Source: an uncultured Acidobacteriota bacterium (GTDB lineage: Bacteria; Acidobacteriota; Thermoanaerobaculia; Multivoradales; JAHEKO01). From it: a stretch of 64,000 nt of DNA. The notes beneath the pieces were generated by a model. The model did not search any database. It was not told the DNA's origin and was given only the letters and a program-made list of their open reading frames with translations. A program made the position numbers and the translations under genes. The stretch spans positions 136,699 through 200,698 of the forward strand of contig CAVRAU010000023.1 of the NCBI GenBank assembly GCA_963719055.1, read 5' to 3'. Below are positions 16,502 through 33,934 of the stretch, piece after piece (position 1 is the first letter of the stretch; the number at the start of each line of letters is the position of its first letter).

Positions 16502-16534
16502 TACAAAAGGCCGGCACGGAGACCCTCCAACCGA

Positions 16535-16554
16535 GGCCGGCGCGGAGGCCGGCC
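16535..16554. terminator. possible bidirectional hairpin between convergent genes
   Basis: Stem ggccgg / ccggcc around an 8-nt loop cgcggagg. Lies between the heptosyltransferase (+) and the biotinyl protein (-). A weak T tract follows. Confidence 0.3.
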
Positions 16555-16596
16555 ACTACCGTTCTTGTCTCTGCAGAAGCCTACCGGTCTGAAGAT

Positions 16597-17100
16597 CTAT
16601 TCGAGCTCGAAGAGAGGGTCGCCGCCTTCGACGGGCTGGCCGGCGGTGACGAAGATCCGGGTGACGACGCCTTCGTGCTCGGCCTGGATCTCGTTCTCCA
16701 TCTTCATGGCTTCCAGCACGATGAGACCCTGGCCTGGCTGCACCGACTCTCCTTCTTCCACCAGGATCTCGACAACCCGACCGGGCATGTAGGCCAGAAT
16801 CTGTTGGGGACCTTCACGCTTCTGTCTGCCCGAACCCTGTTCGGCAAGATAGGTCAGGGGATCGAGTACCTGTACCTCGTCGATGGCTCCTTGATGACTG
16901 ACGGTGTACTTGCTGGAGTTCTCGCGTCGTACCGAGACTTCGAATTGGCGACCTTCGATCACCAGGCTCCGTACGGAACCGTTGGTGGCCGCGGAGTCGA
17001 CGACATAGGATCGCTCCCCGATCCGCAGACGAAAGACCTGCCCCTGCTCCTCTACCTCGACGCGGCTCTCTTCGCCACCCCGCAGAACAATCAGCTCCAT
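16597..17100 (-). CDS. biotin/lipoyl-attachment domain protein (BCCP-like)
   Basis: C-terminal 'GLIVLEAMKMENEIQAEHEGVVTRIFVTAGQPVEGGDPLFELE' carries the AMKM biotinylation motif. Immediately downstream of accC. Confidence 0.75.
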   Translation of the reverse strand: MELIVLRGGEESRVEVEEQGQVFRLRIGERSYVVDSAATNGSVRSLVIEGRQFEVSVRRENSSKYTVSHQGAIDEVQVLDPLTYLAEQGSGRQKREGPQQILAYMPGRVVEILVEEGESVQPGQGLIVLEAMKMENEIQAEHEGVVTRIFVTAGQPVEGGDPLFELE

Positions 17101-18635: not shown

Positions 18636-18714
18636 GAGGCCAACTCCCTCAAGTCGACTGAGCTACGCCGCGAGGCGGAACGCACCATCGTGCAGCCACT
18701 GGATCTTAGCAGCC

Positions 18715-21030
18715 TCAAGTCTGGCGCCGCCGCAGGGAAAGGGTGATCAGACCCACCAGGGCGATGAGGGCGACAGCTGTGGAGATCCAAAGGGGGCGAC
18801 GGTCGATCCAGATCTCGACCCGGTGATCCCCCGCAGGCAGCTCGATCCCAAGCCGATGGATGTTGGCGGCCACGATGGGTATTCGCCGACCATTCGCCCG
18901 CGCCCGGTAGATGGGCAGAAAGGCCCTCTGCAAGACCAGAACGCCTGGGACGGTCGAGCTGACCTCGAGCTCCATCCGGTGGGTGCCGGACTCGGTGACT
19001 CTGGCGCTTCCCGGTGGCCCATCCCAGCTGGAACCACCCTCCGGCAGGACTACCGTCGTCGTCGGGTCGAAGTCCTCGGCGGTGATCCATTCCAGCGCCG
19101 CGTTGAGATGGGGTGCTCGCAACACCCTGCCGAGGAATTGTGCTCGTGGCGCCGCGTCGATCTCGTAGACGAAAATCTCACCGCCCACCCCGGGCTGCCG
19201 ATGTCGCAGTCTGGCGACATCGTCGCTCTCGATTTCGAGCGCCCGGCCGAGCAGCAGAACATCCACCCCCGAGGCGGCCAACAGTCGCACCCGTCGATCG
19301 TCAGGTAGAACTCGCAGAGCCTCCGCTGCTGCCCGGGTCAGAAACGCGTCCAGACCTTCAGCCGAGATGGCGAAATCGTAGCGCCTGCCCCAGATCGTGC
19401 CGGCGACCGGATAGAGCTCATCGAAAACCTGCCGCTGCAACCAGATGGGGCGAGCATCGGGGTAATCGGCCGGCGACATCTTGACAGCGCCAAACAGGCC
19501 ATTGGACTTGCCATGCGTGACGATGGACCCTTCGCCGACGTGCGCCAGCAGCGCCGGCGGCTCCAAGAACTGCCCCACCTCCACCATGGGCAGCGCGGGC
19601 CTCAGAATCCAAAGCTGTACCGCTAGATGCAGGACCAGCAAGCCGGCACCCGCGAGCTCGGGAGAGCGGCGACCCCATCTGTAGATCCATCCCATGACCG
19701 CCAGGAGACCGAGGGTGATCAGCGCCCATCCAGCCCAAGCTTGCTGCTCCAGTAGGAGCCGCTCACTAGTCAACGAGCCGGCAACCTTGGAGGCCAACCA
19801 CGAAGGACTCGCCGTCCCGGCAGCACCAAAACCCACCCACAGCAAAAGAAACACGAGACCCAGACCTGCCAAAATCCTCCAGAAGGTGCGGCGGTGAGAG
19901 GCGCCCATCAACCGCTCGAAACCCAGGCCACAGAGCAGGGCCAGACCCACAGCGGTCATCAACCAGAACTTGACCGGCAATCGCATCAGATCGGTGCCCG
20001 GTATCTTCAACAGCCAACGCACCAGGACATTGTGCTCACCCAGGGCCAGGAACACCCCCAGACCCGCTACGGCCCATGCCCACCGAGCCGCCCGGCTCGA
20101 TGGGCGACCACTACCGAGAATCAAGATCAGTGCCAGAACCCCTGGGTAGAGACTGGGAAACAAGGGCAAGTTTCCACCATGGAAACCCTGACCCCAGAAC
20201 GCCAGATCAGGACGCCCGAAGAAGAACGGAATCAACCACTCCGCTGCCGCCATGGGGTGCCAGCTGGCTGCGGTTGCGGCGGCCTCCGAGAACCCCATGT
20301 GCCCCCGATAGGACATCGGCAGAATGCGCAGAAACTCCACCCATTGCGGTGCCGCGATCGCAGTCCCGAGAACGATCGCCAAGCCGGCCCAAAACCAGGC
20401 GACCCGACGCCAACCCCACCGCACGAGCACTGCCGAGGCTCCCAGGAACAGAGCCATGACGCAGGTCATGGGATCTCCCGCCAGGAGCAGCACGGTCCAG
20501 ATCAACCCAACCGGCAGCAGATTCTTGCGCTCGCTCTCCGGCCGAGCCAATTGCAGCCAGGCCGCCACGAACGCCGGTGTCCAAGCGGCTCCGGCGACAA
20601 GGTTGTAGAAGCCCAGGTTGGAGATGAAGAATCCACTCGCGGCGTAACAGATCCCGGCAGCCCATGCCGCTTGGCGATCCAAACCCCAGACCCGAGCCAA
20701 CCAGAACATGGTCAGAGGCGCGAGGAGTAGATGGAGCCAGAAGTGGGCATTGAACGCCCACAGGGTCGGCGCCACCAGGTAGAGCAGGTTGTCCGGCAAC
20801 AGCGGTACGGTGTTTGGATTGCCCAGATGGGGTTCGCCGCCATCGCGATAGGTGTCCACTACCGGCAGGTACCCTTCGCGCATGGCTTCGGCCTGGACCC
20901 ACTTCTTGCCCAGATGAGTGTTGAAGACATCCCGCAGGAAGAGCGAGTCCGTACCGCGGATCAAAGGCAACGCCACCCAAACGATCACCAGCAGGCACGG
21001 TAGGACAAAGGTGAGAAGGAATCTCTTCAT
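18715..21030 (-). CDS. YfhO-family polytopic membrane protein (GT-C-like glycosyltransferase)
   Basis: 771 aa, >12 predicted TM helices. N-terminal 'LFLRDVFNTHLGKKW...PHLGNPNTVPLLPDNLLYL'. Large C-terminal extracytoplasmic domain ending in a final TM. Confidence 0.65.
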   Translation of the reverse strand: MKRFLLTFVLPCLLVIVWVALPLIRGTDSLFLRDVFNTHLGKKWVQAEAMREGYLPVVDTYRDGGEPHLGNPNTVPLLPDNLLYLVAPTLWAFNAHFWLHLLLAPLTMFWLARVWGLDRQAAWAAGICYAASGFFISNLGFYNLVAGAAWTPAFVAAWLQLARPESERKNLLPVGLIWTVLLLAGDPMTCVMALFLGASAVLVRWGWRRVAWFWAGLAIVLGTAIAAPQWVEFLRILPMSYRGHMGFSEAAATAASWHPMAAAEWLIPFFFGRPDLAFWGQGFHGGNLPLFPSLYPGVLALILILGSGRPSSRAARWAWAVAGLGVFLALGEHNVLVRWLLKIPGTDLMRLPVKFWLMTAVGLALLCGLGFERLMGASHRRTFWRILAGLGLVFLLLWVGFGAAGTASPSWLASKVAGSLTSERLLLEQQAWAGWALITLGLLAVMGWIYRWGRRSPELAGAGLLVLHLAVQLWILRPALPMVEVGQFLEPPALLAHVGEGSIVTHGKSNGLFGAVKMSPADYPDARPIWLQRQVFDELYPVAGTIWGRRYDFAISAEGLDAFLTRAAAEALRVLPDDRRVRLLAASGVDVLLLGRALEIESDDVARLRHRQPGVGGEIFVYEIDAAPRAQFLGRVLRAPHLNAALEWITAEDFDPTTTVVLPEGGSSWDGPPGSARVTESGTHRMELEVSSTVPGVLVLQRAFLPIYRARANGRRIPIVAANIHRLGIELPAGDHRVEIWIDRRPLWISTAVALIALVGLITLSLRRRQT

Positions 21031-21071
21031 TGGAGGTCCAGATTTTCAGTGACTCCCCTACAATACACTCC

Positions 21072-21944
21072 ATGATAGGCCCCATGATTCGACTTCTGCG
21101 CCCGGCACATTGGGCAAAGAACGTGTTCGTCCTCGCTCCACTGGTCTTCGCTCAGCGGCTCACCGATCCGGAATCGGTCCACAACGGTCTGATGGCCTTC
21201 GCCGCGTTCTGTCTGGCCTCCAGTGCCGTCTATGTCTTCAACGACATTCGGGACCGAGCCGAAGATCGCCTGCATCCGATGAAGCGCTTCCGGCCCATCG
21301 CTGCGGGTGAAGTCAGCGTCTTCGCGGCTACGGTGCTGGGTCTCGGACTGGCGATCGTCAGTCTGGCGCTGGCTGCCTCCCTGGGCTGGCCCTTCTTTGC
21401 CATACTGGCCATCTATCTGGGGCTCAACCAGCTCTACTCAGCGGGTCTCAAGCACACGGTCATCCTCGACGTGATGATCGTCAGCCTCGGGTTCGTCCTC
21501 AGAGTCCTCGCCGGTGGCGCTGCCGTGCATGTGCAGGTATCGGCATGGCTTCTCCTTTGCACTTTCTTCATCGCCTTGTTTCTCGCCTTCTCGAAGCGAC
21601 GCCACGAGCTCATCCTGCTAGCCGACGACGCCTCCGGTCAACGACCGGTGCTGAGCCACTACAGCCCCGAATTCCTCGACCAGATGATCAACGTCGTCAC
21701 CGCCTCCACCGTGGTGGCCTATGCCATGTACGCCATCTCGCCGGAGACCATCGAGAAATTCCAGACGCGACATCTGATCTACACGATTCCGATGGTCCTC
21801 TTCGGCATCTTCCGATACCTCTACCTCATCTATCAAAAGCACACGAACCGCAATCCCACAGAAGCGATCCTGAGAGACCCACCGTTCTTGATCAACATGT
21901 TCCTCTGGGCGTTGGCGGCTCTCTGGATCGTCTACCGTGGCTAG
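21072..21944 (+). CDS. UbiA-family prenyltransferase, decaprenyl-phosphate phosphoribosyltransferase (DPPR synthase, Rv3806c)-like
   Basis: 'MIRLLRPAHWAKNVFVLAPLVFA' plus Asp-rich 'FNDIRDRAEDRLHPMKRFRPIAAGEVS'. ~290 aa. Confidence 0.75.
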   Translation: MIGPMIRLLRPAHWAKNVFVLAPLVFAQRLTDPESVHNGLMAFAAFCLASSAVYVFNDIRDRAEDRLHPMKRFRPIAAGEVSVFAATVLGLGLAIVSLALAASLGWPFFAILAIYLGLNQLYSAGLKHTVILDVMIVSLGFVLRVLAGGAAVHVQVSAWLLLCTFFIALFLAFSKRRHELILLADDASGQRPVLSHYSPEFLDQMINVVTASTVVAYAMYAISPETIEKFQTRHLIYTIPMVLFGIFRYLYLIYQKHTNRNPTEAILRDPPFLINMFLWALAALWIVYRG

Positions 21945-22046
21945 GGTGACCTCTATCCTGGCGCGGGTCCGAGCCGGCATCTATCCCTTCGAGATCGTCA
22001 CCACCGTCAGTCTGTTCGCAACCGTTGTCTTCCTACGCCGCCACGG

Positions 22047-22946
22047 TTGAGAATCGACTGGCAGACCTTCGAGTACACCGTTCCACCTCTGATTCCGGTG
22101 ATGGCGAAGTATTTTGCCGTCGGATTGTGTCTCTATCTGGTTTACCTCCTCCTCAGAAGGCGTCGGATCCAGCCGAATGTTCGGCGTGTGCTCTCGGTTC
22201 CTGGTTGCTGCTCACACTCAGGCTGTGGCTGGCGATCATCGGCTTCTTCTTCTGCTACTTATGGCTGAAGGTCTGCACGCCGCTGATCAATCACAGGCTC
22301 TGGGATGGCGTCTTCTGGCGTCTCGACACGATCCTCCATCTCGGTTTTTCACCCTGTCTTTCTCACCGAGCTCACCGTGGCACGGGACTGATCGACTGCT
22401 CGATATCTGGTATGGCCTCTGGCTGCCGTCGGTCTCCCTGAGCATCGCCTTCTTCCTGGCCCTGCCAGGAGCCCGTATCCGCCGCCGCTTTGTCCTCAGT
22501 TGCGTCCTGATCTGGGTGTCGGGTGCCTGGATCTATGTGTCTCTTCCGACCCTGGGCCCCATCTACGCCTTTCGCCCGTATCTCGAGGAGGTGCTGCCAG
22601 AGATTCCCCAGGCCAGCAGCGCTCAGGCGATGCTGTGGGACAACTACGAGAAAGTCGTGGCGGGCGCTCTGGAGATCTCAAGCAGTTCAAACCTGCCCTG
22701 GGTATCGCTGCGATGCCAAGCCTCCATGTGGGCGTCCATTGGCTGCTGATGTTGTGGATCCGACGGTATGCCAGACCTCTCTTCGCAGTGGCGGTCATTG
22801 GCACCCTTCTGACCTTCCTCGGTTCGATCGTCACCGGGTGGCACTACGCGGTCGACGGATACGTGGGCATCGGATTGGCCCAACTGAGCTATTGGCTGGC
22901 GAACCGGACGGAGCGGCAACCGCAGACTGCCCGAGCCACGGCCTGA
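22047..22946 (+). CDS. PAP2-family membrane phosphatase (about three apparent frameshifts)
   Basis: Pieces in three frames. N-terminal TMs 'AKYFAVGLCLYLVYLL'. C-terminal 'AMPSLHVGVHWLLMLW...TGWHYAVDGYVGIGLA' matches PAP2 motifs (SxH; SRxxxxxHxxxD-like). Confidence 0.6.
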
Positions 22947-23054
22947 TCTCGCGATGACTTTCGCTTTCACGACCTTGGGATAACATGCGAACGCTGGCCG
23001 TGACCGGTAGGCATCGGCCGGCGGCCGAGAACCGAGTCGAACTCACCCCTCCCC

Positions 23055-26000
23055 ATGCGATTCACCGTCACCAAGATCAGTCTGCTGGTCTTCGGCTCCG
23101 GGTTCTGTGCGCTGGTCTACCAGATGGCATGGCTACGGTTGCTGCGTCTGATCTTCGGCTCTTCGACGCCCGCCACCGCAGCCGTCCTGGCCATCTTCAT
23201 GGGCGGTCTCGGGGCCGGCAGTCTCATCCTCGGACCCCGATCTGATCGCCAGGCCAGCCCACTCGGCTTCTACGCTCGGCTCGAGCTCGGCATCGCCGTC
23301 TCGGCAGCAGCCAGCCCCTTTCTCATCTTGCTGACTCGTTGGCTCTACATCTTCGCTGGAGGATCTCAGCAGTTGGGCCTGGTGACCGGTAGCCTCCTGA
23401 GGATCCTTCTCGCGACCTTGGTCCTCGGTCTGCCGACGTTTCTCATGGGAGGCACTCTTCCTGCGGTCACTCGAGCCGTGGAACGGGCCGAGGACCCCGG
23501 GCGGCGGCTGCTAGGAATTCTCTATGGAGCCAACACCCTCGGTGCCGTGCTGGGCGCCCTCACCACGACCTTCTTCAGTATCGAGATTCTGGGAATCCGC
23601 CGATCCATCTGGATCGCCAGTCTGATCAATCTGCTGGTCGTCGTGCTCGCCCGACGCCTGGCCCAGAGGTCTCGCCGAGCGCGGGGCGGTTGCCCGCGAA
23701 CCGACCCCAGCTAGCACGGATCACGAGGTCCGGGCGATCCCGTCGCCAGCAGTGGCGACGTCGGCACCTGCACGGCTGGTGCTGATCTCAGCAGCGATCG
23801 TGGGCTTCGCATTCTTTCTCATGGAGCTCGTCTGGTACCGCATGCTAGCTCCCCTGCTGGGAGGATCCTCCTATACCTTCGGTCTGATCCTGGCCGTGGC
23901 GCTGGCGGGAATCGGTGCCGGTGGACTCCTCTACGGCGCCGGCACCAGGACCCGGCGCCCCTCGCTACTCGCATTCTCGATCACCTGTTCGCTGGAGGCG
24001 CTCTTCCTGGTCATTCCGTTGGCACTCGGGGACCGGCTCGCCGTCGTCGCTTTGGTATTGAGGGACCTGGGAGGATTGGGGTTCCCGAGCCTCGTCCTCT
24101 CCTGGTCGGTGGTGGTCGCCGTGGTGGTCCTGCCAGGAGCCATCATCGCCGGCTATCAGTTTCCACTCCTGGTGGCCATCCTGGGTACAGGTCGCGACCG
24201 GGTCGGCACGGAGGTGGGTTGGACCTATGCTTGGAATACGGCCGGCGCCATTCTCGGCTCCCTTGCCGGCGGGTTTGGCCTGATCCCCCTGCTCTCGGCA
24301 ACCGGCACCTGGCGACTGGTCGTCACCGTGCTGGTAGCTCTGGCGATCGTTACCGGAGTCTTTGGAACAAGGCGGCCGGCTCACCGGCGACTCGCGACAC
24401 CCTTGGCTATCGCTCTCGCCGCGCTGGTGCTGGCCACCTCTACCGGGCCCACGGCATTCTGGCGGCACAGCCCGATCGGCGCCGGTCGGATGAAGCTCAC
24501 CTTTGCGGACGAGAACGACCTGACCGACCAGATCCGCTGGAAGAATCGCATCATCCTCTGGGAGGCGGATGGCAGGGAGAGCTCGATCGCTATGCAATCT
24601 GTCGACGGCGCCAGCTTTGTGATCAGTGGCAAGGTCGACGGTCACGCCCGCAAAGATGCCTCGACTCAGGTGATGAGCGGCCTGCTGGGAGCAGCTCTCC
24701 ACCCCAACCCACGACACGCCCTGGTGATTGGACTGGGAACCGGGAGCACGGCTGGCTGGTTGGCTCGGGTTCCCACCATCGAGCAAGTCGATGTCGTGGA
24801 ACTGGAGCCGGATATCGTGGAAGTGGCTCGGCAATGCGTACCGGTCAATCAGGATGTTCTCGGCAATCCAAAGGTCCACCTGATCATCGGAGACGGCCGC
24901 GAGATTCTGCTGACCACTGGGCAGCGCTACGATGTCGTCTTCTCGGAACCCTCCAACCCCTACCGCGCTGGAATCGCCAGCCTGTTCACCAGGGATTTCT
25001 ACTCTGCGGTCTCCCAGCGTCTGACCGAGGATGGCATCTTCATTCAGTGGCTGCAGGGATACGAGGTGGACGGTCAGATCGTCCGCACGGCGATGGCAAC
25101 AATGGGGGTCGTTTTCGATTCTGTAGAGATCTGGCACACCAACCAGTCCGACTTGATGCTCCTGGCCTCCAATCGACCGATCCGCCACGATACGGCCCGA
25201 CTGCGGGACCGCCTGGCTGCTGAGCCCTTCAAAACAGCCATGAACAGAATCTGGGGGGTCGAAGGGGCCGAGGGCTTCTATGCCGGTTTTGTCGCCGCCG
25301 ACCCGCTGACCCGGGCCATCCTCGAACAGGAGAACCGTTGGATCAACTCCGACGACCGGCCCATTATCGAGTTCGGCTTCGCCAGGAATCTCGGTCGGGC
25401 CGGGAGGTTCAAGATCGAAGACTTGATCCAACTCGCCAGGAGCCGGGGCGAGGATCGACCGAGCGGCGTCGAAGAGGAGAGCCTGGATTGGCAGCAAGTG
25501 GTCGACCTGAGGGCTGCCAGGACCGCCGCCGTCAATCAGTCTCCTCATATGCCCCCCGACGCCCCACCGGACCTGGCATCCCGAATCCGCGCTCGTCAGC
25601 ATTTCGTGCGCCAGCAGCTTCACCGGGCCTGCACCGAGTGGCACACCCAGGACCAGCAGCCGACAGCACCCATCGATGTCCTGATGTTGGCCGAGTGCCT
25701 GGCAGACAGCGGCAACCACGCCGCGGAGCCGCTCATAGAACAGCTGCGAACCGATGGCAGAATCATCGAAGCCGAGGCCATCCTGGCTCGACTGGTGGCC
25801 AAGTCCGGGGAGACCGAGAGCGCCGGCGAGCACCTGACAAGGGCCTTTGAAGGCTACCGCTCGGATCCCTGGCCGTACCCCCCGACCATGACTCGATTGC
25901 TGCTCCTGGCGGCGGAGCTGGTGCGAGAAGAACCGTCCTTGGGACCGAGGATCTTCAAAGCTCTGGACGAGCCCTTTGCCGTCGATCTGCTGAGCGAACT

Positions 26001-26235
26001 TCGCCGTGCGGCCCTCCTCGATATCGCCCGCATCACCGGGTCCAACGATCTCTGCTTGCAGGCCATGGAGGCCTTCGGCCGGTGGTATCCCTGGCAAGAG
26101 AACTTCTTGCGCGAACGGCTCCGGTGCCTGGACGAGAATCGTCATCCTCTGGCGGGGCAAGCGCGACGAGATCTGGAGGACTTTCTGGTGGTGGCACCCT
26201 TTCCCCTGGACACCGGGCTGCGACCCGAATCATGA
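23055..26235 (+). CDS. fused membrane (2x6-TM internal duplication) / spermidine-synthase-like aminopropyltransferase-fold protein with long C-terminal extension; apparent frameshift ~23715
   Basis: Repeated modules 'FGSGFCALVYQMAWLRLLRLIFGSSTPATAAVLAIFMGGLGAGS' and 'IVGFAFFLMELVWYRMLAPLLGGSSYTFGLILAVALAGIGAGG'. Spermidine-synthase fold 'ALVIGLGTGSTAGW...VDVVELEPDIVEVA...HLIIGDGRE...YDVVFSEPSNPYRAGIASLFTRDFY'. Confidence 0.65.
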
Positions 26236-27516
26236 GCAGGCTGAGCGCGCGAGGGCGGCTGACCGTGATTCTCGGGGCCGGCCTGCTCTTCGTTCTCGTC
26301 GCGCTCTTCCTGCGCCCCTCCACCGAGGAGCTGATCGACGGGGAGGACATCCAACCGCCGGGGCGCTGGCATCTCCAAACGTCCCGACTTGAGGAATCGA
26401 ACGCCGGAGAAGAGCTTGCCCGAGTGCTCTCGCTACCCTATATGGCCGGTTCCAAGGCAGCGCCGTCCCAGACCGGCGTGACCCGCCACGACTCCGACCT
26501 GGCCCAGCCCGGTCTCAATCTCTATGTCTCGGGTCACGGACCGGAGGTCGTGCTCGTGGACATGCAGGGAACGTTGATGCACCGGTGGCACTATCCCTTC
26601 GAGAGAGCGTTCCCCGAAAAGAAGCCCACCATCGACACGGCCTACATCCGTCGAGCCCTTCTCTACCCCAACGGTGACCTGCTGGCGATCTTCCAGGGCG
26701 GTGGCATGATCAAGCTCGACCGCCTCTCCAACCTGATTTGGGCCTCGGACCTGCCCTACTACAACCATCTCTCTGTCGATGAACATGGCCGGATCCTGGC
26801 CATCGCCAAGACCGCCAGAGTCGTCCCCGAGCTCCGGCCCGACGCGACGATTCTGGAGGACTCCATCGTCCTCCTGACACCCGACGGGTGAGCTCTTGCG
26901 TCGCGTGTCGCTCCTCGAGTGCTTCGCGGCGTCCGAATTCGCCGACCTGATCCATCCCCTCCCCGACCACCCGGACATCTTCCACACCAACACCGTGCTG
27001 CCCATCGATGGCACTCTGGCCGCAGGCTCGGACGTCCTCCGACCCGGTCAGCTGGTGGTCTCGCTGCGTGAGATCGACACCGTAGCGCTGATCGATCCCG
27101 ATGCGGTGAAGGTGACAGCTGCCTGGCGCGGGCCCTGGAGAGGCCAGCATCAGCCCGTGCCTCTTTCTTCGGGAACTCTTCTTCTGTTCGACAACAAGGG
27201 TGCTCGTACAGGGTCTCGAGTCGTCGAATTCGACCCGGCAAACGGAGAGCTGTCATGGGTATTCCCCGGCGAAGATCAGCCGAGCCTCTCGTCGCCCGAG
27301 GCAGGATCCTGTCAACGTCTGCCCAATGGCAACACGCTGATCACAGAATCCGAGATGGCTCGGGCGCTCGAGATCACACCCGCGGGCCAGGTGGTGTGGG
27401 AGTTCGTCAGCCCTCACCGCGCCGGTGAGCAACTGGAGCTGGTCGCGACGCTTTTTGAAGTGATCCGGTTTCCAGTCGAGGCACTACCGTTTGTCGGGAG
27501 CGGCGATACCCGCTAG
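26232..27516 (+). CDS. arylsulfotransferase (ASST)-like beta-propeller protein with N-terminal anchor; apparent frameshift ~26890
   Basis: Signal anchor 'LTVILGAGLLFVLVALFL'. 'GLNLYVSGHGPEVVLVDMQGTLMHRWHYPF...LYPNGDLLAIFQGGGMIKLD', then 'HTNTVLPIDG...NGNTLITESEMARALEITPAGQVVWEF'. Confidence 0.55.
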
Positions 27517-28616
27517 AAGAACCGCTGAACCGCCACACACACCTCCTCCACCTCGCCGTCCGTGAGCTCGGGGAACATGGGCAGGCAGAGAACTTCTCGT
27601 CCGGCCAGCGTCGCCACCGGTAGATCGTCGACCTGCGAGCCCCTGCTGGTAAAGGCGGGCTGCAGGTGCAACGCCAGAGGATAGTGAACACTGGTGCCGA
27701 TTCCTTGCTCCTGCAGAAACTGGCGCAACTCATCTCGCTGTCCGGTCATCACCGTTTCCTGGTGAAACACCGATAGCGCCCCGGGTGGGTCGATCAGAAA
27801 CCGCAGATCTCCGACATCGGCCAGATTCGCTCGGTACCGCTGTGCGATCTGCCGGCGTCTCTCGTTGTGCGTTGCCAGCGACGGCAGGCGACAATTGAGC
27901 ACTCCGGCCTGGAGCGCATCCAAGCGACTGTTCATGCCCACTTCCGAGTGCACGTAGTGCTCACGCCGACCATGGTTCGCCAATCTCCTGACCCTGGCCA
28001 ACAGATCGACATCGTTGCCGGTCACCGCCCCACCATCGCCAAAGCAGCCGAGATTCTTCGCCGGGTAGAAGCTCCAGGTTGCCAAAGAACCGAAGTTGCC
28101 CACCCGCCGACCCTGCCACTCGGCACCATGAGCCTGTGCCGCATCCTCGACCAACCAGAGGCCATGCCGCACCGCTAGATCCTGAGCTCGATCGACAGCG
28201 AAGGGCCGACCATAGAGATGGACTCCGATGACGCCCACCGTGCGATCGGTGATCCGGTCCGCGGCTCGCGCCCAATCGAGATTCAAGCTCGCGGCCTCGA
28301 CGTCGGCAAAGACCGGTGTCCCCCCAGCCAGCACCACCGCCGCGGCGGTAGCGATGAAGGTGAAGCTGGGAACGATGACCTCGTCTCCGGGCTCCAGATC
28401 CAGGGCCCGCAGCGCCAGGACCAATGCGTCCGTGCCATTGGCGACACCGACACAGCCGGCCGACGCGACAAAGTCCGCGAAGGCCTTCTCGAAGCGATCG
28501 ACCTCCGCTCCGCCGACAAAGGAGCTCGCCATCAACAGCGAGCTCCAACGGCTCTCGACCTCCTCGGCGATGGGCTCGATGGCGCGCCGCAGATCAAAGA
28601 CGGGAATCTGAGTCAT
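27513..28616 (-). CDS. DegT/DnrJ/EryC1/StrS-family PLP-dependent sugar aminotransferase (ArnB/WecE-like)
   Basis: 'GCVGVANGTDALVLALRAL', 'EVIVPSFTFIATAAAV' and 'SFYPAKNLGCFGDGGAVT' (PLP-lysine region). 367 aa. Confidence 0.85.
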   Translation of the reverse strand: MTQIPVFDLRRAIEPIAEEVESRWSSLLMASSFVGGAEVDRFEKAFADFVASAGCVGVANGTDALVLALRALDLEPGDEVIVPSFTFIATAAAVVLAGGTPVFADVEAASLNLDWARAADRITDRTVGVIGVHLYGRPFAVDRAQDLAVRHGLWLVEDAAQAHGAEWQGRRVGNFGSLATWSFYPAKNLGCFGDGGAVTGNDVDLLARVRRLANHGRREHYVHSEVGMNSRLDALQAGVLNCRLPSLATHNERRRQIAQRYRANLADVGDLRFLIDPPGALSVFHQETVMTGQRDELRQFLQEQGIGTSVHYPLALHLQPAFTSRGSQVDDLPVATLAGREVLCLPMFPELTDGEVEEVCVAVQRFF

Positions 28617-30180
28617 GGTTTAGCTCCATTTGCCGGCTCGACCAAGGGATAACGAGTCCAAGGGGTCCTGTACACCACCAGGACATCTCCGGCCATGGTG
28701 ATGTTGTTGGCGATCGGAATCTCGTGGACCGCCTGGAAAGCGGAGACGTCGTCGATGAGCCGGTCCAACCAGTTGGGAAAAATCACCAGATAGTCTGGCT
28801 TGTAGTGTTCCAGAAAAGCGACTGCGCCCCAGGTCTTGATCTCGGGATTGGCAATACCCGCCAGATCGACGACCTGGTTGGGAAGCAGGTACTTGATGGC
28901 ACCGATATCACCCACACCCAACACCGCCTCGGGCGGCAATCGGTGGGCCAGCCAGCGGGCGGCCCTGACGTCACTGTCCTGGACATTGACGACTCCTTGG
29001 GCGTAGCGACCCGCACCCTGGGCCAGCTCCGTCAGGGTCGGCGCCAGGAGAACCAGAACCGCCAGTAGGCGGAGAGGGATCCGCAAGAACCCTACCTTGA
29101 CCCACCTGGCGAGTCGCCGGGCGACGGGCTGCACGGCCAGAATTCCCAGGATGACCACGATGGGAAAAAGCGGAAAGTAGTAGCGGCCGAAATTCCCCAC
29201 AAGGCTGTACTTACCCGGCGGATCGATCAGACCGTAGGCGAACGGCAGACCAAAGAGCCAGAGAATCGGCAGCAGTCCACGGTTCCTTCTGGGTCCCCAG
29301 ATCGGCGAGAAGAATCAGGGCTCCGGCAGCGGCGAACAGAGCCATCCAGGGCTGTGCCTGGAAGAAGATCCCGAACACTGTATACAGATAGCCCATCTCC
29401 GGCAGCCACCGAGCCAGCCCTCCCGACTTGGCTCCAAATGTGGTGGGCAAGATCGATCCGGTGACTGAGAGATTGAAGACCAAGACCGGAGCTACGATCA
29501 CCGCGGCGATCGCCAATCCGACAAGCAGATCTCGCCACCGCGGCGGGTGCCAGGTCCCCTGACCATCCGCCCCGAGCCGAAATACCAGCAGCCGGTCGGC
29601 GACCGCCGCCAAGATCAGCAATGCCGCCTCCGGACGAGCCAGAAAGCCGAGCGCCAGGATGGGCAGCGACACGGGAATGCGCGCGGGATCTCGACGCTCC
29701 TGGATATGGAACAGAATTCCCGCCAGACTGAGGACGATGAACAGCGAGATCTCCAGACCCGGACAGCGCCGACCAGACGAGCCAGGAAGTCGCGAGGGTC
29801 ACCGCCGCGGCGAGGTTCGCCGGCCAGGGGTCCAGCCCCAACTCTCGTGACAAACGATAGGTCACCACGCCGCCGGCCAGATAGAGGACGACGCCGAAGA
29901 GCTTTGTCCAGAAGAGCGGATTGCCGGGTAGAAAAAAGATCAGGGACAGAAGGGCTGTCCACAGCGGCGCCGTCGAGCCGGGCACCAGCACCTCTGGATT
30001 GAACGAGAGACCGTTGCCGGCAAAGAGATTGCGAGCAAACTGCAGGTGGATCCAGCTGTCGTCGAGGGGAAACCCCAACTCGCCTCCGAGCAGATAGATC
30101 TCGACCACCAGATAGAAGAGACAGGCTGCCAGACCGAAGACCAGACAACCTAGCCAGATCCTGCTGTCTCTACTCCCCAT
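28613..30180 (-). CDS. ArnT/PMT-like (GT39/GT83-type) polytopic membrane glycosyltransferase; at least two apparent frameshifts
   Basis: N-terminal 'LGGELGFPLDDSWIHLQFARNLFAGNG...PLWTALLSLIFFLPGNPLFWTKLFGVVLYLAGGVVTYRL'. Middle and C-terminal pieces lie in other frames. ATGA overlap with the DegT gene. Confidence 0.55.
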
Positions 30181-30304
30181 GGCAGCGCCCGGATTCAAGT
30201 TGTCCGTTTGTGAAGGCTCCGATCTCTCCGCTCCAGACACCGGGTAAGGATACACAAACAATCGTCCCGGGAACGACTTTGCCGATGCTAAGATCGCGCC
30301 GCGC

Positions 30305-31741
30305 ATGTATCTTTCCAAGAGATTCGCCGCTCTTCCTCCGCGCCAAAAGCTTCTCGCTCGCATCGCACTCTACGGTGGGCTGGCCGCCCTCATGGGCCTC
30401 GTGGCGCTGGGGATCTCCTACTTCGCCCGCCCCCTGAAAAGGGGGAGGGACGCTATCGGAGACATCGCCGCGCTCAGTCAGACCGAGGAGGTGCGGCTAC
30501 TCCAGGAGTACATTCAGATCGACACCAGTTCGAGTACCGGTAGCGAGGTGGATGGCGCGCTCTTCCTGGCCGAGCACCTGCGGCAAGGGGGTCTCGAACC
30601 CTACATCGAGCGCCTCGGTGAAGACAAAGCCAACCTGTGGGCGATTCTGGAGGGCGAGACCGAGCAGGCCATCGTCCTCCACAACCACATCGACGTCTAT
30701 CCGGCGGGTGATCCGGAGGATTGGGACTTTCCACCTTTCGGGGGAGTGATCGACAAGGCCTGGATCTACGGCCGCGGCGCCTTCGATATGAAAAGCCTCG
30801 CCATCGCCCAGCTCATGGCCATCGTCGATCTGGCCAAGGATCAGGAACGACCCGAGAACACGATTATCTTCCTGGCTTCGGGCAGCGAGGAGGTGGGTAG
30901 CGATCTGGGCTCGAAATGGATCCTGGCCAACCACCCTGCCCTGGCCGACCGGTTCTCGGTCGTCCTGACCGAGGGTGGGGTCATCGAAGCGATCACTCAC
31001 GAAAACATCAAGTATTGGGGGGTCGAGTTCGCCCAGAAGTGGTTCGCAGACGGCTGGGCCTGCGCCCCGACTCGAGAGCGGCTGGAGGCTCTCAGAGAGG
31101 ATCTGAACCACATCAGCGACTCGAGTTACGAGTTACGAGTGACCCCAGAGATCCAGGACTTCGTGCTCTCGTATGGCGGTTCGCGGGGTAGCGAGAAGAC
31201 TCAGGAGATGCTGGACGACCTGCTCTCGACCCTCGACCATGCCGATCAGTTCAAGGCGCTGCCGCCCTATCTGCAATCGCTTTTCCGAGACGAGACCGCC
31301 CCTTTCGAGATCGAGCCGGATCCCGAGGGAGAAGGCTACAGGATGAGAATCATCCTGCATCTGCTGCCCGGTTCGGACTTCGAGGAGGCCAAGAGGACCC
31401 TTCTCCCCGACTGGGCGACTGCCGGCGTCTCACTGACCTTCACTCCTCCTGCGGGAGCGGATTACGGCAGCCCCATTGATCATCCTGCCTTCCAGATTCT
31501 TGTCGACTCTCTCCAGGAAGCCCATCCCTATGCCACTGTCGGCCCCTACTTTCTGGCCTGGTCGGCCACGGACGCCCGCTTCTTTCGCCAGGCCGGTACC
31601 CCGGCCTATGGCTTCTCGCCATTCCTGATCTTCGTCACCGACACCTTCCGCCGCGACACGCTCAACGAACGGATCGATCTGCGGGGCTTTGTCGAAGGTG
31701 TGGACCTCTACCGGCAGGTCGTCCGCCGACTCGCCGGCTGA
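30305..31741 (+). CDS. M20-family metallopeptidase (ArgE/DapE/CPG2-like) with N-terminal membrane anchor
   Basis: 'NHIDVYPAGDPEDWDFPPFGGVIDKAWIYGRGAFDMKS' and 'IIFLASGSEEVGSDLGSKW' match M20 metal-binding motifs. Confidence 0.75.
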   Translation: MYLSKRFAALPPRQKLLARIALYGGLAALMGLVALGISYFARPLKRGRDAIGDIAALSQTEEVRLLQEYIQIDTSSSTGSEVDGALFLAEHLRQGGLEPYIERLGEDKANLWAILEGETEQAIVLHNHIDVYPAGDPEDWDFPPFGGVIDKAWIYGRGAFDMKSLAIAQLMAIVDLAKDQERPENTIIFLASGSEEVGSDLGSKWILANHPALADRFSVVLTEGGVIEAITHENIKYWGVEFAQKWFADGWACAPTRERLEALREDLNHISDSSYELRVTPEIQDFVLSYGGSRGSEKTQEMLDDLLSTLDHADQFKALPPYLQSLFRDETAPFEIEPDPEGEGYRMRIILHLLPGSDFEEAKRTLLPDWATAGVSLTFTPPAGADYGSPIDHPAFQILVDSLQEAHPYATVGPYFLAWSATDARFFRQAGTPAYGFSPFLIFVTDTFRRDTLNERIDLRGFVEGVDLYRQVVRRLAG

Positions 31742-31838
31742 CAGGCTGTGGCAAACCCCTGGTCAATTCTTGTCACCTCGACGGCCGGGTTCTCCTGAAC
31801 CGACCCCAAAAACTCCCTGAAACAAGGGTTTTCTCGCT

Positions 31839-31854: not shown

Positions 31855-31909
31855 GAAAGGGTATTCGAGCGAAGCGGAAACACTAACTGTTACAGAGGAG
31901 TGAATGACT

Positions 31910-32541: not shown

Positions 32542-33934
32542 GTGCTGCCCTTGCTAGACTCTCACTCCACCGTGCGTGCTTCGGCCAGTCTCCTGCTCAT
32601 CCTCCTGGCGATCGCCTTTCCAGGCCAGGTCCTCCAGGCGCTGGAGCCGACGGTCGACGAAGCCACCGAGTGGCTCGAGCATTACATCGAGATCGACACC
32701 TCCACCCTCGACGGGGCGCGAAAGGCGGGCACCTATCTGCGCGGACTTCTCCATCAGGCCGGGGTGACCACCCAATGGATCATCTCTCCGGAGGGTCAGC
32801 CGTTTCTCTACGCTCGTGCCGAGGCTGCGGTAGCCGGTGCTCCTACTTTGATCCTGCTGCATCATCTCGATGCAGTTCCCGCCGGATCGGGCTGGACTCA
32901 CGAGCCGTTTGCGGCGGAGATCGATGAGGGGGCTCTCTACGGACGCGGAGCCATCGATGACAAGAGTCTGGGAATCGCCCATCTGGTCGCCTTTCTTGCG
33001 CTACCGGCAATCGACCTCCACATCCGTGGCGCTCGCCTTTCTCGCGGTTGGAGGAGAGGAAACCGGCGGCATGGCAGGAACCGGATGGCTGATCGACAAT
33101 CACCCAGAGCTCTTCGAAAACGTGGCAGCGGTCCTCACCGAGGGAGGCTCCAATCGGGTCTACGGTGATCGTGTCGCCTGGTGGGGAATCGAAGTGGCAC
33201 AGAAGCGACCCCTGTGGATGCTGGCGACCAGCACGGGTCGTCCCGGTCACGGCTCGACGCTCAATCTGCACAGCGCCCCCCACCGTCTCGTGCGAGGGCT
33301 CAGCAAGATGGTGGATCGACCTCTGGATTTCCGCCTGACGCCGGAAGCGAGGCTCTTTTTCGAAACGCTGGCACCGCTGGAGAGTCCCGCATTCCGGTCC
33401 GTGGTCGAGGATCTGGATTCCATTCTGGCGGAGCCCGACCCCGTCCTGCGGCTGCTGCCGGGCCTGCCCAACTATCTCTTGGATTCCGTCCAGGTCAATG
33501 TCCTGGAGGCCGGGTCGGATCTCAACGTGACTCCCGATGTGGCCCGGGCGCGGATCGACGCGCGCCTACTCCCCGACACTGACGAAGCCGCATTTCTGGC
33601 CGAGCTGCGCGAGCTCGCGGGTCCCGATGTCAAGCTCGAGGTTCTCCTGACTGCCGCCCAATCCCCACCCTCACCCACCGACCACCCTGTCTTTGTCTGT
33701 CTGCAGGATCAACTCGGCAGTTCGGCACCCGTGGTGCCGGCCTTCATCACCGCCATCACGGATGCGCGCTTTCTTCGCCAGCGAGACATTCCGGCCTACG
33801 GATTCTCACCGTTCCCCCTCGGCCCCCGGGCCCTGCGCGGTATCCACTCGAGCGACGAGCACATCCCCCTCGATGACTTTGGCGAGGGTATCGAGACCCT
33901 GTGGAAAGTGGTGTGGCGATGCACCGGCGGCTGA
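32542..33934 (+). CDS. M20-family metallopeptidase paralog (apparent frameshift ~33000)
   Basis: 'LILLHHLDAVPAGSGWTHEPFAAEIDEGALYGRGAIDDKS', then in another frame 'FLAVGGEETGGMAGTGWLIDNH...LTEGG'. Paralog of 30305-31741. Confidence 0.7.

What the first reader, a model, noticed from the sequence alone, without database searches (positions are those of the whole stretch)
18715..22946. DPPR-synthase-like UbiA prenyltransferase + PAP2 phosphatase pair (Rv3806c/Rv3807c-like synteny) flanked by YfhO GT-C membrane proteins
21072-21944 has the 'LLRPxxWxKN' N-terminus and 'NDxxDxxxD' motif of decaprenyl-phosphate phosphoribosyltransferases. The next gene is a PAP2 phosphatase. This is the same pair that makes decaprenyl-phospho-ribose in the mycobacterial DPA pathway. 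It is also found in Pseudomonas aeruginosa strains that glycosylate pilin with D-arabinofuranose (established knowledge). Two large YfhO-family GT-C-like proteins (18715-21030 and 33919-36361, the latter right next to the pilin and minor-pilin genes) are plausible users of a polyprenyl-phospho-pentose donor. No DprE1/DprE2 epimerase pair is in the window, so the donor may be polyprenyl-P-ribose rather than arabinose. Possible targets are pilin, LPS or another envelope polymer.
Basis: inference. Interest (0 to 1): 0.75.

Follow-up and report, generated by a model that had tools for sequence, protein, structure and literature searches.

The report
Lipid-linked pentose donor and transferase locus
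An uncultured soil Acidobacterium carries a gene for the enzyme that makes a lipid-linked ribose donor, placed next to several membrane sugar-transferases, which is a new-looking version of a cell-surface decoration pathway already known from mycobacteria, Pseudomonas and Citrobacter.

Summary
Window 21072-21944 encodes a UbiA-superfamily protein that passes two NCBIfam models for decaprenyl-phosphate phosphoribosyltransferase, matches the M. tuberculosis Rv3806c structure, and has the NDxxDxxxD motif. The next gene overlaps it by 8 bp and belongs to the PAP2 superfamily, but to Pfam PAP2_3, not the classic PAP2 family of Rv3807c. In this window it is broken by six deletion events. It is intact in four independent assemblies that are 98-99% identical, so the breaks are probably assembly errors.

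Best reading: a polyprenyl-phosphate-ribofuranose donor system feeding periplasmic GT-C enzymes, with an unknown acceptor. The concept was published by Kelly et al. (2024). This is a new variant of it, of moderate interest.

The parts
21072..21944 (+). Polyprenyl-phosphate 5-phosphoribosyltransferase (UbiA superfamily, DPPR-synthase family), 290 aa, intact
   Evidence: NCBIfam NF008977 324.8 bits against cut-off 234, and NF008978 227.6 against 207. PDB 8j8j (Rv3806c) E = 9e-37. NDIRDRAED motif and KRRHEL motif seen in the sequence.
21937..22946 (+). PAP2_3 (PF14378) membrane phosphatase or phosphotransferase. Its start overlaps the UbiA stop by 8 bp. Broken here by six deletion events (7 bases) at 22043, 22199, 22353 (2 bases), 22375, 22392 and 22660.
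   Evidence: Pfam hit. Frame changes. Intact 338-aa gene in L075, L076 and L078 (L077 matches the same bases), and a 347-aa gene in L001. AF2 model pLDDT 90, nearest folds IPC synthase, Aur1, PgpB and LpxE.
18715..21030 (-). M771: 771-aa GT-C-fold glycosyltransferase of a family with no Pfam model, transcribed divergently from UbiA across a 41-bp gap
28613..30306 (-). M538: GT-C-like protein of about 540-560 aa and about 10 TM segments, with DDSWIHLQFARN after TM1. Two frameshifts here; start codon uncertain.
   Evidence: tblastn against the intact L001 gene. Hydropathy and motif. Sub-threshold PMT_2 hit, E = 1e-4. Conserved near UbiA in 11 loci. Extra bases at 29287 and 29756 relative to L078.
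27513..28616 (-). DegT/DnrJ/EryC1-family PLP sugar aminotransferase. The L001 ortholog overlaps M538 by 4 bp (same operon); here the ORFs 27513-28616 and 28613-29200 show the same 4-bp overlap.
   Evidence: Pfam annotation of the L001 ortholog, which is 75% identical to the window gene. Synteny. In L072 DegT overlaps UbiA in one operon.
33919..36361 (+). M771b: paralogue of M771 lying between the second M20 peptidase gene and pilD, with at least three frameshifts here
   Evidence: Three collinear fragments match the M771 HMM (positions 7-156, 324-666, 641-764) at E about 1e-15 to 1e-13. The RD...HL motif is kept. A 792-aa gene in the same relative position in L073 carries a faint YfhO annotation.
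23007..26235 (+). Fused polytopic (about 14 TM) and spermidine-synthase-like protein (about 1077 aa in L001) directly downstream of PAP2_3, with one frameshift here. Role unknown; the only unassigned polytopic protein beside UbiA.
   Evidence: NCBIfam NF037959 and Pfam Spermine_synth. tblastn against L001. TM count. An extra G at 23668 relative to L075 and L078.

Best explanation
The locus is the core of a periplasmic pentofuranosylation system of the kind described for mycobacterial DPA, P. aeruginosa TfpW and Citrobacter O antigens.

Proposed steps:
1. UbiA (21072-21944) transfers ribose-5-phosphate from PRPP to a polyprenyl phosphate (presumably undecaprenyl-P) on the cytoplasmic face. The family assignment and the motif residues are shown; the activity is inferred.
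2. The 5-phosphate is removed. In this lineage this is most likely done by the translationally coupled PAP2_3 protein. Most relatives lack that gene next to UbiA, so another phosphatase must do it there. This step is inferred from gene coupling and analogy only.
3. The lipid-linked sugar reaches the periplasm by an unidentified flippase.
4. It is used as a donor by GT-C enzymes encoded around UbiA: M771 (fold shown), M538 and the paralogue M771b (both GT-C-like by sequence only).

No DprE1/DprE2 or SDR epimerase is in the window or in any of the related Acidobacteriota loci. The donor encoded here is therefore polyprenyl-P-ribofuranose unless epimerases lie elsewhere in the genome.

The acceptor is unknown. 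The candidates are LPS core or lipid A (kdtA, lpxK and a GT9 heptosyltransferase gene lie 2-8 kb upstream), the type IV pilin (the pilin gene and M771b sit next to pilD), or a separate periplasmic polymer built by several GT-Cs.

The frameshifts in PAP2_3, M538 and M771b are most likely consensus errors of a long-read metagenome assembly.
For: UbiA family membership:
-, plus the motif residues read.

M771 has a GT-C fold:
- The AF2 model is confident.
- Foldseek top hits are AftD, ArnT and AftA.
- An invariant Arg-Asp pair lies just after TM1, in the first periplasmic loop.

Linkage of M771 and UbiA:
- They form a divergent pair in L001, L002, L005, L006, L008, L009, L012 and L038.
- Looking from the M771 side, all three homologues tested at 44-47% identity also pair with UbiA.
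- One of these, L072, has different flanking genes, so inherited gene order alone does not explain the pairing.
- L074 has three tandem M771 paralogues beside UbiA.

Other linked genes:
- M538 is near UbiA in 11 loci.
- L007 has the order UbiA, PAP2_3, PMT-like GT-C.
- PAP2_3 overlaps UbiA by 8 bp here and in L001, L075, L076 and L078.

Precedents:
- Kelly et al. 2024, PMC11127046.
- P. aeruginosa PsPA7_6245-6249 with TfpW, bioRxiv 10.1101/2020.04.19.049825.
- Rv3806c/Rv3807c, PMC3055594.

Assembly error:
- The window and L078 are 99.2% identical over 21 kb. Each carries its own different frameshifts.
- Three short-read assemblies agree with L078 at all seven missing bases.
- Codon differences in PAP2_3 are 11 synonymous to 7 non-synonymous.
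Against: - No enzyme activity, lipid or glycan data exist for any protein of this clade.
- No flippase (MATE, SMR or GtrA type) was found in the window.
- PAP2_3 is not an orthologue of Rv3807c. It lacks the KX6RP motif. By the positive-inside rule its PSLH and HYAVD motifs face the periplasm, while PRPP chemistry is cytoplasmic.
- The PAP2_3 model is closest to phosphotransferases, at a marginal E = 1e-3.
- Two PAP2_3 homologues at 50-58% identity are not next to UbiA.
- M771 is missing beside UbiA in L004 and L007.
- Much of the synteny comes from one class (Thermoanaerobaculia and relatives), where gene order is broadly inherited.
- Six deletions within 620 bp of PAP2_3 is far above the background indel rate of the window (about 0.3 per kb). 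A real pseudogene in this strain cannot be excluded.
Confidence: 0.6

Rival explanations
1. PAP2_3 does not act on the UbiA product. It is a periplasm-facing lipid phosphatase or phosphotransferase with another substrate. Examples: lipid A 1- or 4'-phosphate (as for LpxE/LpxF), undecaprenyl-PP, or transfer of a phospho-head-group as in IPC or sphingomyelin synthases. It would sit beside UbiA only in a few lineages.
For: - It belongs to PF14378 rather than PF01569.
- Best structural matches are IPC synthase 9vj4 and Aur1 9ivc, then PgpB and LpxE.
- HYxxD and PSLH are present without KX6RP.
- The catalytic motifs are predicted on the periplasmic face.
- Homologues in L079 and L080 lie in unrelated contexts.
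- It is absent from most UbiA loci of the clade.
- LPS genes kdtA, lpxK and GT9 are nearby.
Against: - Its start overlaps the UbiA stop by 8 bp in five assemblies.
- It sits directly after UbiA in the more distant L007, where a GT-C gene follows it.
- The same superfamily pairing occurs in M. tuberculosis and P. aeruginosa.
- Rv3807c is also a PAP2 membrane enzyme, so it has the same topology problem.
Confidence: 0.35
2. PAP2_3 (and perhaps M771b and M538) are true pseudogenes in this particular strain, so the system is decaying here.
For: - There are six deletion events within 620 bp of PAP2_3, against about 0.3 indels per kb elsewhere in the same window.
- All six are deletions.
- The adjacent 5 kb (accC, M771, UbiA) has none.
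- PAP2_3 is dispensable in relatives. The P. aeruginosa phosphatase mutant is only partly defective.
Against: - The sister long-read assembly L078 has its own frameshifts in other conserved genes (M771, kdtA, SpeL), so such breaks are typical of these assemblies.
- The window also has breaks in pilQ, the pilin gene and other conserved genes.
- Seven missing bases against 18 substitutions is far more indels than expected for a pseudogene only 1.8% diverged.
- Substitutions are still mostly synonymous, 11 to 7.
- Four independent assemblies have the intact gene.
Confidence: 0.3
3. The adjacency of M771 (and M538) to UbiA is inherited gene order without functional coupling. The GT-C enzymes would use other polyprenyl-P-sugar donors, and the UbiA product would feed an enzyme encoded elsewhere.
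For: - Most supporting loci come from one class with the shared order accB-accC-M771-UbiA-DegT-M538-M20-pilin.
- L004 and L007 keep UbiA without M771.
- In Myxococcota and several other phyla the DPPRS homologue has no large polytopic neighbour within 4 kb.
Against: - L072 keeps the divergent UbiA-M771 pair although accBC and the other flanks are replaced.
- L074 has M771 expanded into three tandem copies beside UbiA.
- Different GT-C-like genes abut DPPRS homologues in L007, L014, L032, L065 and L067.
- The published systems show the same pairing.
Confidence: 0.2
4. The system glycosylates the type IV pilin, with M771b playing the role of P. aeruginosa TfpW.
For: - M771b lies two genes after the major pilin gene and directly before pilD.
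- A large membrane-protein gene sits in the same relative position in L073.
- The whole UbiA region is embedded between type IV pilus assembly genes and minor pilin genes.
- There is a TfpW precedent.
Against: - M771b is absent in L002 and L005, where pilD follows the second M20 gene.
- TfpW has a TPR C-terminal domain. M771 instead has a beta-sandwich domain plus a terminal TM helix.
- LPS core genes are equally close.
- There are no data on pilin mass.
Confidence: 0.2
5. The UbiA protein is an aromatic or heme prenyltransferase (ubiquinone, menaquinone or heme O), not a phosphoribosyltransferase.
For: Some public annotations of close homologues read '4-hydroxybenzoate polyprenyltransferase'.
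Against: - The NCBIfam models for those enzymes score 18-33 bits against cut-offs of 210-350, while two DPPRS models pass.
- The PDB match to Rv3806c is 29 orders of magnitude better than to a generic UbiA enzyme.
Confidence: 0.02

Closest known systems
Three-component extracytoplasmic pentofuranosylation systems (Citrobacter youngae O1/O2 ORF15-ORF14-ORF12; Kelly et al. 2024, PMC11127046)
   Same: A UbiA-type polyprenyl-phosphate phosphoribose synthase with the same NDxxDxxxD catalytic loop is encoded beside a GT-C-fold transferase. The expected donor is polyprenyl-P-ribofuranose. When no epimerase is present the sugar stays ribose. The authors already noted candidate systems in many bacteria whose glycans are unknown.
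   Different: - The phosphatase is not a fused HAD domain but a separate and optional PAP2_3 protein.
- No MATE flippase is in the locus.
- The GT-C belongs to a family with no Pfam model, and its relation to GT136 was not tested.
- Several GT-C-like genes cluster around UbiA.
- The locus is a conserved chromosomal region of a whole class, lying between LPS-core and type IV pilus genes, not an O-antigen cluster.
Mycobacterial decaprenyl-phospho-arabinose pathway (Rv3806c UbiA, Rv3807c PAP2, DprE1/DprE2, Emb/Aft GT-Cs)
   Same: The first enzyme is of the same family (PDB 8j8j E = 9e-37). A PAP2-superfamily gene is adjacent. Multiple GT-C enzymes are the likely consumers. AftD and AftA are among the best structural matches of M771.
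   Different: No DprE1/DprE2 was found. The phosphatase belongs to a different Pfam family (PF14378 rather than PF01569). The organism is Gram-negative (LPS genes present), so the lipid is probably C55 rather than C50. The GT-Cs are not Emb/Aft family members.
Pseudomonas aeruginosa group IV pilin arabinosylation (PsPA7_6245-6249 plus TfpW)
   Same: A DPPRS homologue occurs with a PAP2-type phosphatase. The phosphatase is only partly required there, which fits its patchy presence here. A GT-C gene is encoded next to the pilin gene.
   Different: The P. aeruginosa cluster includes DprE1, DprE2 and a GtrA-like protein, none of which was found here. TfpW has a TPR C-terminal domain. In P. aeruginosa the sugar-donor genes and the pilin genes are unlinked, whereas here they lie within 15 kb.
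YfhO (PF09586) GT-C proteins of Firmicutes
   Same: The layout is similar: an N-terminal GT-C helical bundle, a large extracytoplasmic domain and a final C-terminal TM helix. Weak collinear Pfam hits occur at the N-terminal region and at the last TM helix in some family members.
   Different: None of the family members whose scores I saw reaches the Pfam gathering score. The best score shown is 23 bits against a cut-off of 28.5, and the best E-value among the 38 aligned relatives is 3e-4. The window protein has no YfhO hit at all. The partner donor synthase here is a UbiA-type enzyme, not a GT2 CsbB/GtrB-type enzyme.

Membership tests
DPPR synthase / polyprenyl-phosphate 5-phosphoribosyltransferase (NCBIfam NF008977/NF008978; Rv3806c) | Scores above the curated family cut-off and better than other UbiA subfamilies | tested here: met
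   324.8 bits against 234, and 227.6 against 207. Heme-O, UbiA, MenA-type and other models score 33 bits or less against cut-offs of at least 210. 8j8j E = 9e-37 against 4tq3 E = 3e-8.
DPPR synthase / polyprenyl-phosphate 5-phosphoribosyltransferase (NCBIfam NF008977/NF008978; Rv3806c) | Catalytic loop II N-D-x2-D-x3-D and loop IV R-x2-E residues (required in Rv3806c and ORF15, per PMC11127046) | tested here: met
   N57 D58 D61 D65 in FNDIRDRAED. KRRHEL aligns with KRYAEL of 8j8j.
DPPR synthase / polyprenyl-phosphate 5-phosphoribosyltransferase (NCBIfam NF008977/NF008978; Rv3806c) | Transfers ribose-5-P from PRPP to a polyprenyl phosphate | not testable with these tools
   Needs a membrane assay with PRPP and farnesyl-P or C55-P.
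Rv3807c-type PAP2 phosphatase (DPPR 5-phosphatase) | Member of classic PAP2 (PF01569) with KX6RP, PSGH and SRX5HX3D motifs (motif consensus and Rv3807c's Pfam family recalled from my own knowledge) | tested here: not met
   PF01569 scores 22 bits, below the 27.2 cut-off. The protein is PF14378 PAP2_3 (E = 3e-22). It has PSLH and S299...H305-x3-D309, but no KX6RP and no Arg in the third motif.
Rv3807c-type PAP2 phosphatase (DPPR 5-phosphatase) | PAP2-superfamily membrane fold with His and Asp catalytic residues | tested here: met
   AF2 pLDDT 90. Foldseek hits are IPC synthase, Aur1, PgpB, SMSr and LpxE, with a best E of only 1e-3. S264, H266, H305 and D309 are invariant in 38 homologues.
Rv3807c-type PAP2 phosphatase (DPPR 5-phosphatase) | Encoded directly next to the DPPR synthase gene, consistently across relatives | tested here: inconclusive
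   There is an 8-bp overlap with UbiA in the window, L001, L075, L076 and L078, and the gene is adjacent in L007. It is absent beside UbiA in L002, L004, L005, L006, L009, L012, L038 and L072-L074. Homologues in L079 and L080 are unlinked.
Rv3807c-type PAP2 phosphatase (DPPR 5-phosphatase) | Intact reading frame | tested here: not met
   Six deletion events break the gene in the window. It is intact in four assemblies that are 98-99% identical, so an assembly error is favoured but not proven.
GT-C glycosyltransferase superfamily | GT-C fold: polytopic helical bundle with the first extracytoplasmic loop carrying juxtamembrane helices | tested here: met
GT-C glycosyltransferase superfamily | Conserved acidic residue in the first extracytoplasmic loop | tested here: met
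   R33-D34 and D59 are invariant in 38 homologues and lie just after TM1 (residues 2-25). The paralogue M771b keeps ERD...HL. M538 has DD after TM1.
GT-C glycosyltransferase superfamily | Uses a polyprenyl-phosphate-linked sugar donor | not testable with these tools
   Inferred from the fold and from adjacency to UbiA only.
YfhO family (Pfam PF09586) | Scores above the Pfam gathering threshold (28.5 bits) | tested here: not met
   The window protein has no YfhO hit at E of 0.1 or better. Of its relatives, 7 of 38 have sub-threshold hits (best E = 3e-4). More distant family members score 23 bits or less.
Three-component pentofuranose system (Kelly et al. 2024) | Dedicated flippase (MATE, or SMR/GtrA in related systems) encoded in the locus | tested here: not met
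   No MATE, SMR or GtrA domain appeared in the scanned window ORFs. No small ORF with three or more TM segments lies near the locus.
Three-component pentofuranose system (Kelly et al. 2024) | GT-C of CAZy family GT136 | not tested
Only the GT-C fold was shown.
Three-component pentofuranose system (Kelly et al. 2024) | HAD-type phosphoribose phosphatase domain fused to the synthase | tested here: not met
   The protein is 290 aa with no extra domain. It scores 200.6 bits on NF006088 (the 482-position model, which the window protein matches only at positions 191-476, its UbiA part) against a cut-off of 351. Most homologues in the 71 loci searched with it are also about 290-320 aa.
DPA (arabinofuranose) pathway | DprE1 (FAD oxidase) and DprE2 (SDR) present | tested here: not met
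   Neither was found among the 45 window ORFs scanned, nor among the called genes listed for the seven related loci that carry a gene table (L001, L002, L072, L073, L074, L075, L078). The rest of the genome could not be searched.

The most novel reading that the evidence does not exclude
Thermoanaerobaculia-type Acidobacteriota may use polyprenyl-P-ribofuranose directly, with no epimerase, as the donor for a set of three or more GT-C enzymes of uncharacterised families. Together these would build a periplasmic pentofuranan, or decorate pilin or LPS, as a Gram-negative counterpart of mycobacterial arabinan assembly. The operon-linked DegT aminotransferase (overlapping UbiA in L072 and M538 in L001) might convert a lipid-linked keto-pentose into an amino-pentofuranose donor, a chemistry not yet described.
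Probability: 0.1. Interest if true: 0.7.

Novelty: new variant of a known kind. Interest (0 to 1): 0.4.

Why it matters
If the reading is right, it extends the lipid-linked pentofuranose pathway to Acidobacteriota. This pathway is a drug target in tuberculosis and a source of antigenic diversity in enterobacteria. Acidobacteriota are a dominant, mostly uncultured soil phylum whose envelope chemistry is almost unknown.

The reading also gives a first functional hypothesis for a large GT-C family that has no Pfam model. A profile of that family finds about 3,400 representative proteins at E up to 1e-30 and about 22,000 at E up to 1e-10.

It suggests a third type of phosphatase partner (PAP2_3), beside the HAD domains and classic PAP2 enzymes already known.

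The practical value is limited. The concept is already published, the acceptor is unknown, and no cultured carrier was identified here.

Tried and rejected
- Pfam and NCBIfam scans of M771 gave no family above threshold. The YfhO label was therefore tested through relatives and rejected as a membership claim.
- The afdb50 fold library was not available.
- Sequence-profile search of PAP2_3 against PDB chains found nothing meaningful; the best hit was a transporter at E = 0.13.
- NCBIfam has no model that hits PAP2_3.
- The promoter and terminator scan of 18500-23200 found nothing above shuffled expectation.
- The literature search for pentofuranose in Acidobacteria glycans found nothing relevant.
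- The search for a small GtrA/SMR-like ORF or a MATE protein in the window found none.
- Neighbourhood clustering over 71 DPPRS loci showed mostly lineage-specific neighbours: an SCFA transporter, RidA and others in Myxococcota. It gave no universal partner apart from NAD-dependent epimerases in 12 loci from other phyla.
- I looked for a common sequence motif around the deleted bases in PAP2_3 that would mark a systematic base-calling error. Several lie beside CG dinucleotides, but there was no convincing motif.
- The idea that UbiA is a quinone or heme prenyltransferase was rejected on HMM scores.

Full report
**What is in the window**

The window has about 62% G+C. Around the finding the gene order is:
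- kdtA (12883-14457, +), lpxK (14454-15491, +) and a GT9 heptosyltransferase gene (to 16501, +)
- accB and accC (16597-18635, -)
- a 771-aa membrane protein, here called M771 (18715-21030, -)
- UbiA (21072-21944, +)
- a PAP2-superfamily gene (21937-22946, +)
- a fused polytopic and spermidine-synthase-like gene, here called SpeL (23007-26235, +)
- an arylsulfotransferase-like gene (26232-27516, +)
- DegT (27513-28616, -)
- a polytopic protein of about 540 aa, here called M538 (28613 to about 30306, -)
- an M20 peptidase gene (30305-31741)
- the major type IV pilin gene (31904-32473)
- a second M20 peptidase gene
- a paralogue of M771, here called M771b (33919-36361)
- pilD, a histidine kinase gene, and minor pilin genes

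Type IV pilus assembly genes (pilQ, pilB, pilC and others) lie upstream of kdtA. Close homologues come from uncultured Acidobacteriota, where named mostly Thermoanaerobaculia.

**Check of the observation**

The UbiA protein starts MIGPMIRLLRPAHWAKN and carries FNDIRDRAED. It passes two NCBIfam equivalog models for decaprenyl-phosphate phosphoribosyltransferase: 324.8 bits against a cut-off of 234, and 227.6 against 207. It is far below threshold for the heme-O, ubiquinone, chlorophyll and archaeal lipid prenyltransferase models. Against PDB sequences it matches M. tuberculosis Rv3806c (8j8j) at E = 9e-37, with the NDxRDxxxDRxHPxKRFRPIAAG block aligned. A generic UbiA enzyme matches only at E = 3e-8.

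**The PAP2 gene**

The downstream gene begins with GTG at 21937 and overlaps the UbiA stop codon by 8 bp. It belongs to Pfam PAP2_3 (PF14378, E = 3e-22 for the intact orthologue). It is below threshold for classic PAP2 (PF01569, 22 bits against 27.2).

In the window it runs through three reading frames. I compared it with these other assemblies:
- Three independent short-read assemblies whose UbiA protein is identical and whose DNA is about 98% identical (L075, L076, L077).
- A 257-kb contig that is 99.2% identical over 21 kb (L078).

PAP2_3 is called as an intact 338-aa gene in L075, L076 and L078. All four assemblies agree on seven bases that the window lacks, at 22043, 22199, 22353 (two bases), 22375, 22392 and 22660. 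A relative whose UbiA is 93% identical (L001) has an intact 347-aa gene. So the second refutation condition, no intact orthologue in relatives, is not met either.

Are the breaks real?
- L078 has its own frameshifts in M771, kdtA and SpeL, where the window is intact.
- The window has further breaks in SpeL, ArylST, M538, the pilin gene, the second M20 gene, M771b and pilQ.
- Both look like error-prone long-read assemblies of one species.
- In PAP2_3, seven missing bases against 18 substitutions, and 11 synonymous against 7 non-synonymous codon changes, fit consensus error better than decay.
- However, six events within 620 bp is about 30 times the background rate. I keep a 0.3 probability that the gene is truly dead in this strain.

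**What kind of PAP2 protein is it?**

- In 38 homologues the residues S264, H266 (PSLH), H305 and D309 (WHYAVD) are invariant. There is no KX6RP motif.
- A confident AF2 model (pLDDT 90) is most similar to inositol-phosphorylceramide synthase and Aur1, then PgpB, SMSr and LpxE. The best E-value is only 1e-3.
- By the positive-inside rule the catalytic motifs face the periplasm.
- Two homologues at 50-58% identity lie in unrelated neighbourhoods.

The protein is thus a PAP2-superfamily enzyme, not an Rv3807c orthologue. Its assignment as the ribose-5-phosphate phosphatase rests on the gene overlap with UbiA and on analogy. In the literature Rv3807c is described as a membrane-bound PAP2 phosphatase encoded beside Rv3806c (PMC3055594). 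The P. aeruginosa homologue PsPA7_6245 is only partly required for pilin glycosylation (bioRxiv 10.1101/2020.04.19.049825).

**The large membrane proteins**

M771 and the homologues I checked have no Pfam domain above threshold. A 38-sequence alignment gave an AF2 model with pLDDT 89.7 and pTM 0.91. The model shows:
- an N-terminal helical bundle;
- a first periplasmic loop (residues 26-88) with short helices;
- a periplasmic alpha/beta region and a beta-sandwich;
- a final TM helix.

YfhO membership fails. The window protein has no YfhO hit. Of its relatives, 7 of 38 give sub-threshold hits, and more distant members score 23 bits or less against a cut-off of 28.5. A profile of the family finds 3,358 representative proteins at E up to 1e-30 and 21,874 at E up to 1e-10.

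M771b matches the M771 HMM in three collinear pieces and keeps the RD...HL motif. M538 has about 10 TM segments, a DDSWIHLQFARN motif after TM1 and a sub-threshold PMT_2 hit. It is therefore GT-C-like by sequence only.

**Synteny**

Among related Acidobacteriota loci the common order is accB-accC(-), M771(-), then UbiA(+), then DegT(-) and M538(-), then M20, pilin and M20.
- The divergent M771-UbiA pair is present in L001, L002, L005, L006, L008, L009, L012 and L038.
- Starting from M771 homologues of 44-47% identity, all three look-ups again found UbiA as the divergent neighbour.
- In L072 the flanks are different: a hexapeptide acetyltransferase, DegT and UbiA form an operon on one side, and a TPR-PMT_2 GT-C lies on the other. 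In L074 three M771 paralogues stand in tandem.
- The M771-UbiA pair is missing in L004 and L007.
- M538 is near UbiA in 11 loci.
- DegT overlaps M538 by 4 bp in L001, and overlaps UbiA in L072.
- PAP2_3 is beside UbiA only in the window's own lineage (L001, L075-L078) and in L007, where a PMT-like GT-C follows it.

In other phyla DPPRS homologues often sit beside other large polytopic proteins, or beside NAD-dependent epimerases in 12 loci. No Acidobacteriota locus shows an epimerase.

**Missing components**

Among the 45 window ORFs I scanned there is no FAD oxidase (DprE1), SDR (DprE2), NAD-dependent epimerase, MATE, SMR or GtrA protein. No small multi-TM ORF lies near the locus. The rest of the genome could not be searched.

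**Mechanism**

The published framework is as follows. A UbiA-type synthase makes polyprenyl-P-ribose-5-P from PRPP. A phosphatase removes the 5-phosphate. Optional epimerases convert ribose to arabinose or xylose. A flippase exports the lipid-linked sugar, and a GT-C enzyme transfers it in the periplasm (PMC11127046).

The locus fits the first and last steps well. It fits the phosphatase step by analogy. It offers no flippase or epimerase. I therefore propose polyprenyl-P-ribofuranose as the donor for M771, and probably for M538 and M771b. The acceptor is unknown: LPS core or lipid A, pilin, or a separate polymer. Several GT-C genes around a single donor synthase resembles arabinan assembly more than a single side-chain addition, but this is inference only.

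**Novelty and score**

The concept and its wide distribution are already published. The new elements are:
- the GT-C family, which has no Pfam model;
- the PAP2_3 partner;
- the conservation of the core across a whole class;
- the position between LPS-core and pilus genes.

I rate it a new variant of a known kind, with interest 0.4.

Noticed in passing
window 3215-5855, 23007-26235, 26232-27516, 28613-30306, 31904-32473, 32674-33934, 33919-36361, 47315-49901, 52029-54650: Many conserved genes are split by single-base indels: pilQ, SpeL, the arylsulfotransferase-like gene, M538, the pilin gene, the second M20 gene, M771b, a sigma-54 regulator and TldD/PmbA. A sister assembly (L078, 99.2% identical) is broken at different places. 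The window therefore looks like an error-prone long-read metagenome assembly, and apparent pseudogenes in it should not be trusted.
   Followed up: partly
window 30305-33934; L002, L005, L009, L012, L073: The major type IV pilin gene is flanked on both sides by M20-family peptidase/deacylase genes. This order is conserved across the clade, and its function is unknown.
   Followed up: no
window 23007-26235; L001 6808-10041; L004 10884-14054: A protein of about 1077 aa with about 14 TM segments fused to a spermidine-synthase-like domain (NCBIfam 'fused MFS/spermidine synthase') lies directly after UbiA/PAP2_3. L002 and L005 have a 503-aa form. It is the only unassigned polytopic protein in the operon, so it is a speculative flippase candidate.
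   Followed up: partly
L072 5389-7860 and L074 45-10361: In L072 a hexapeptide acetyltransferase, DegT and UbiA form one operon (DegT and UbiA overlap by 4 bp), facing M771 and a TPR-PMT_2 GT-C. In L074 UbiA is surrounded by three tandem M771 paralogues, a GT87-like protein and another polytopic protein. The link to DegT hints at an amino-sugar step.
   Followed up: partly
L044, L045, L046, L047, L051, L057, L059, L061, L064, L065, L066, L071: NAD-dependent epimerase/dehydratase genes (PF01370) lie within about 6 kb of DPPRS homologues, in five of these loci within 0.4 kb, in 12 loci variously labelled Limisphaerales/Verrucomicrobiales, Phycisphaerales, Gracilibacteria, Saccharibacteria, Desulfuromonadales, Rickettsiales, Helicobacteraceae and Oscillospiraceae. 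This fits the xylofuranose-type variant of Kelly et al. None occurs in the Acidobacteriota clade.
   Followed up: partly
window 16390-17469 (+): A 359-aa ORF with no Pfam or NCBIfam hit overlaps accB/accC on the opposite strand. It is probably a spurious high-GC ORF.
   Followed up: no
window 26232-27516: An arylsulfotransferase-like gene (PF14269 in the L001 orthologue) lies between SpeL and DegT in the window, L001, L004 and L078. It might sulfate a glycan or phenolic acceptor. Its relation to the system is unknown.
   Followed up: no
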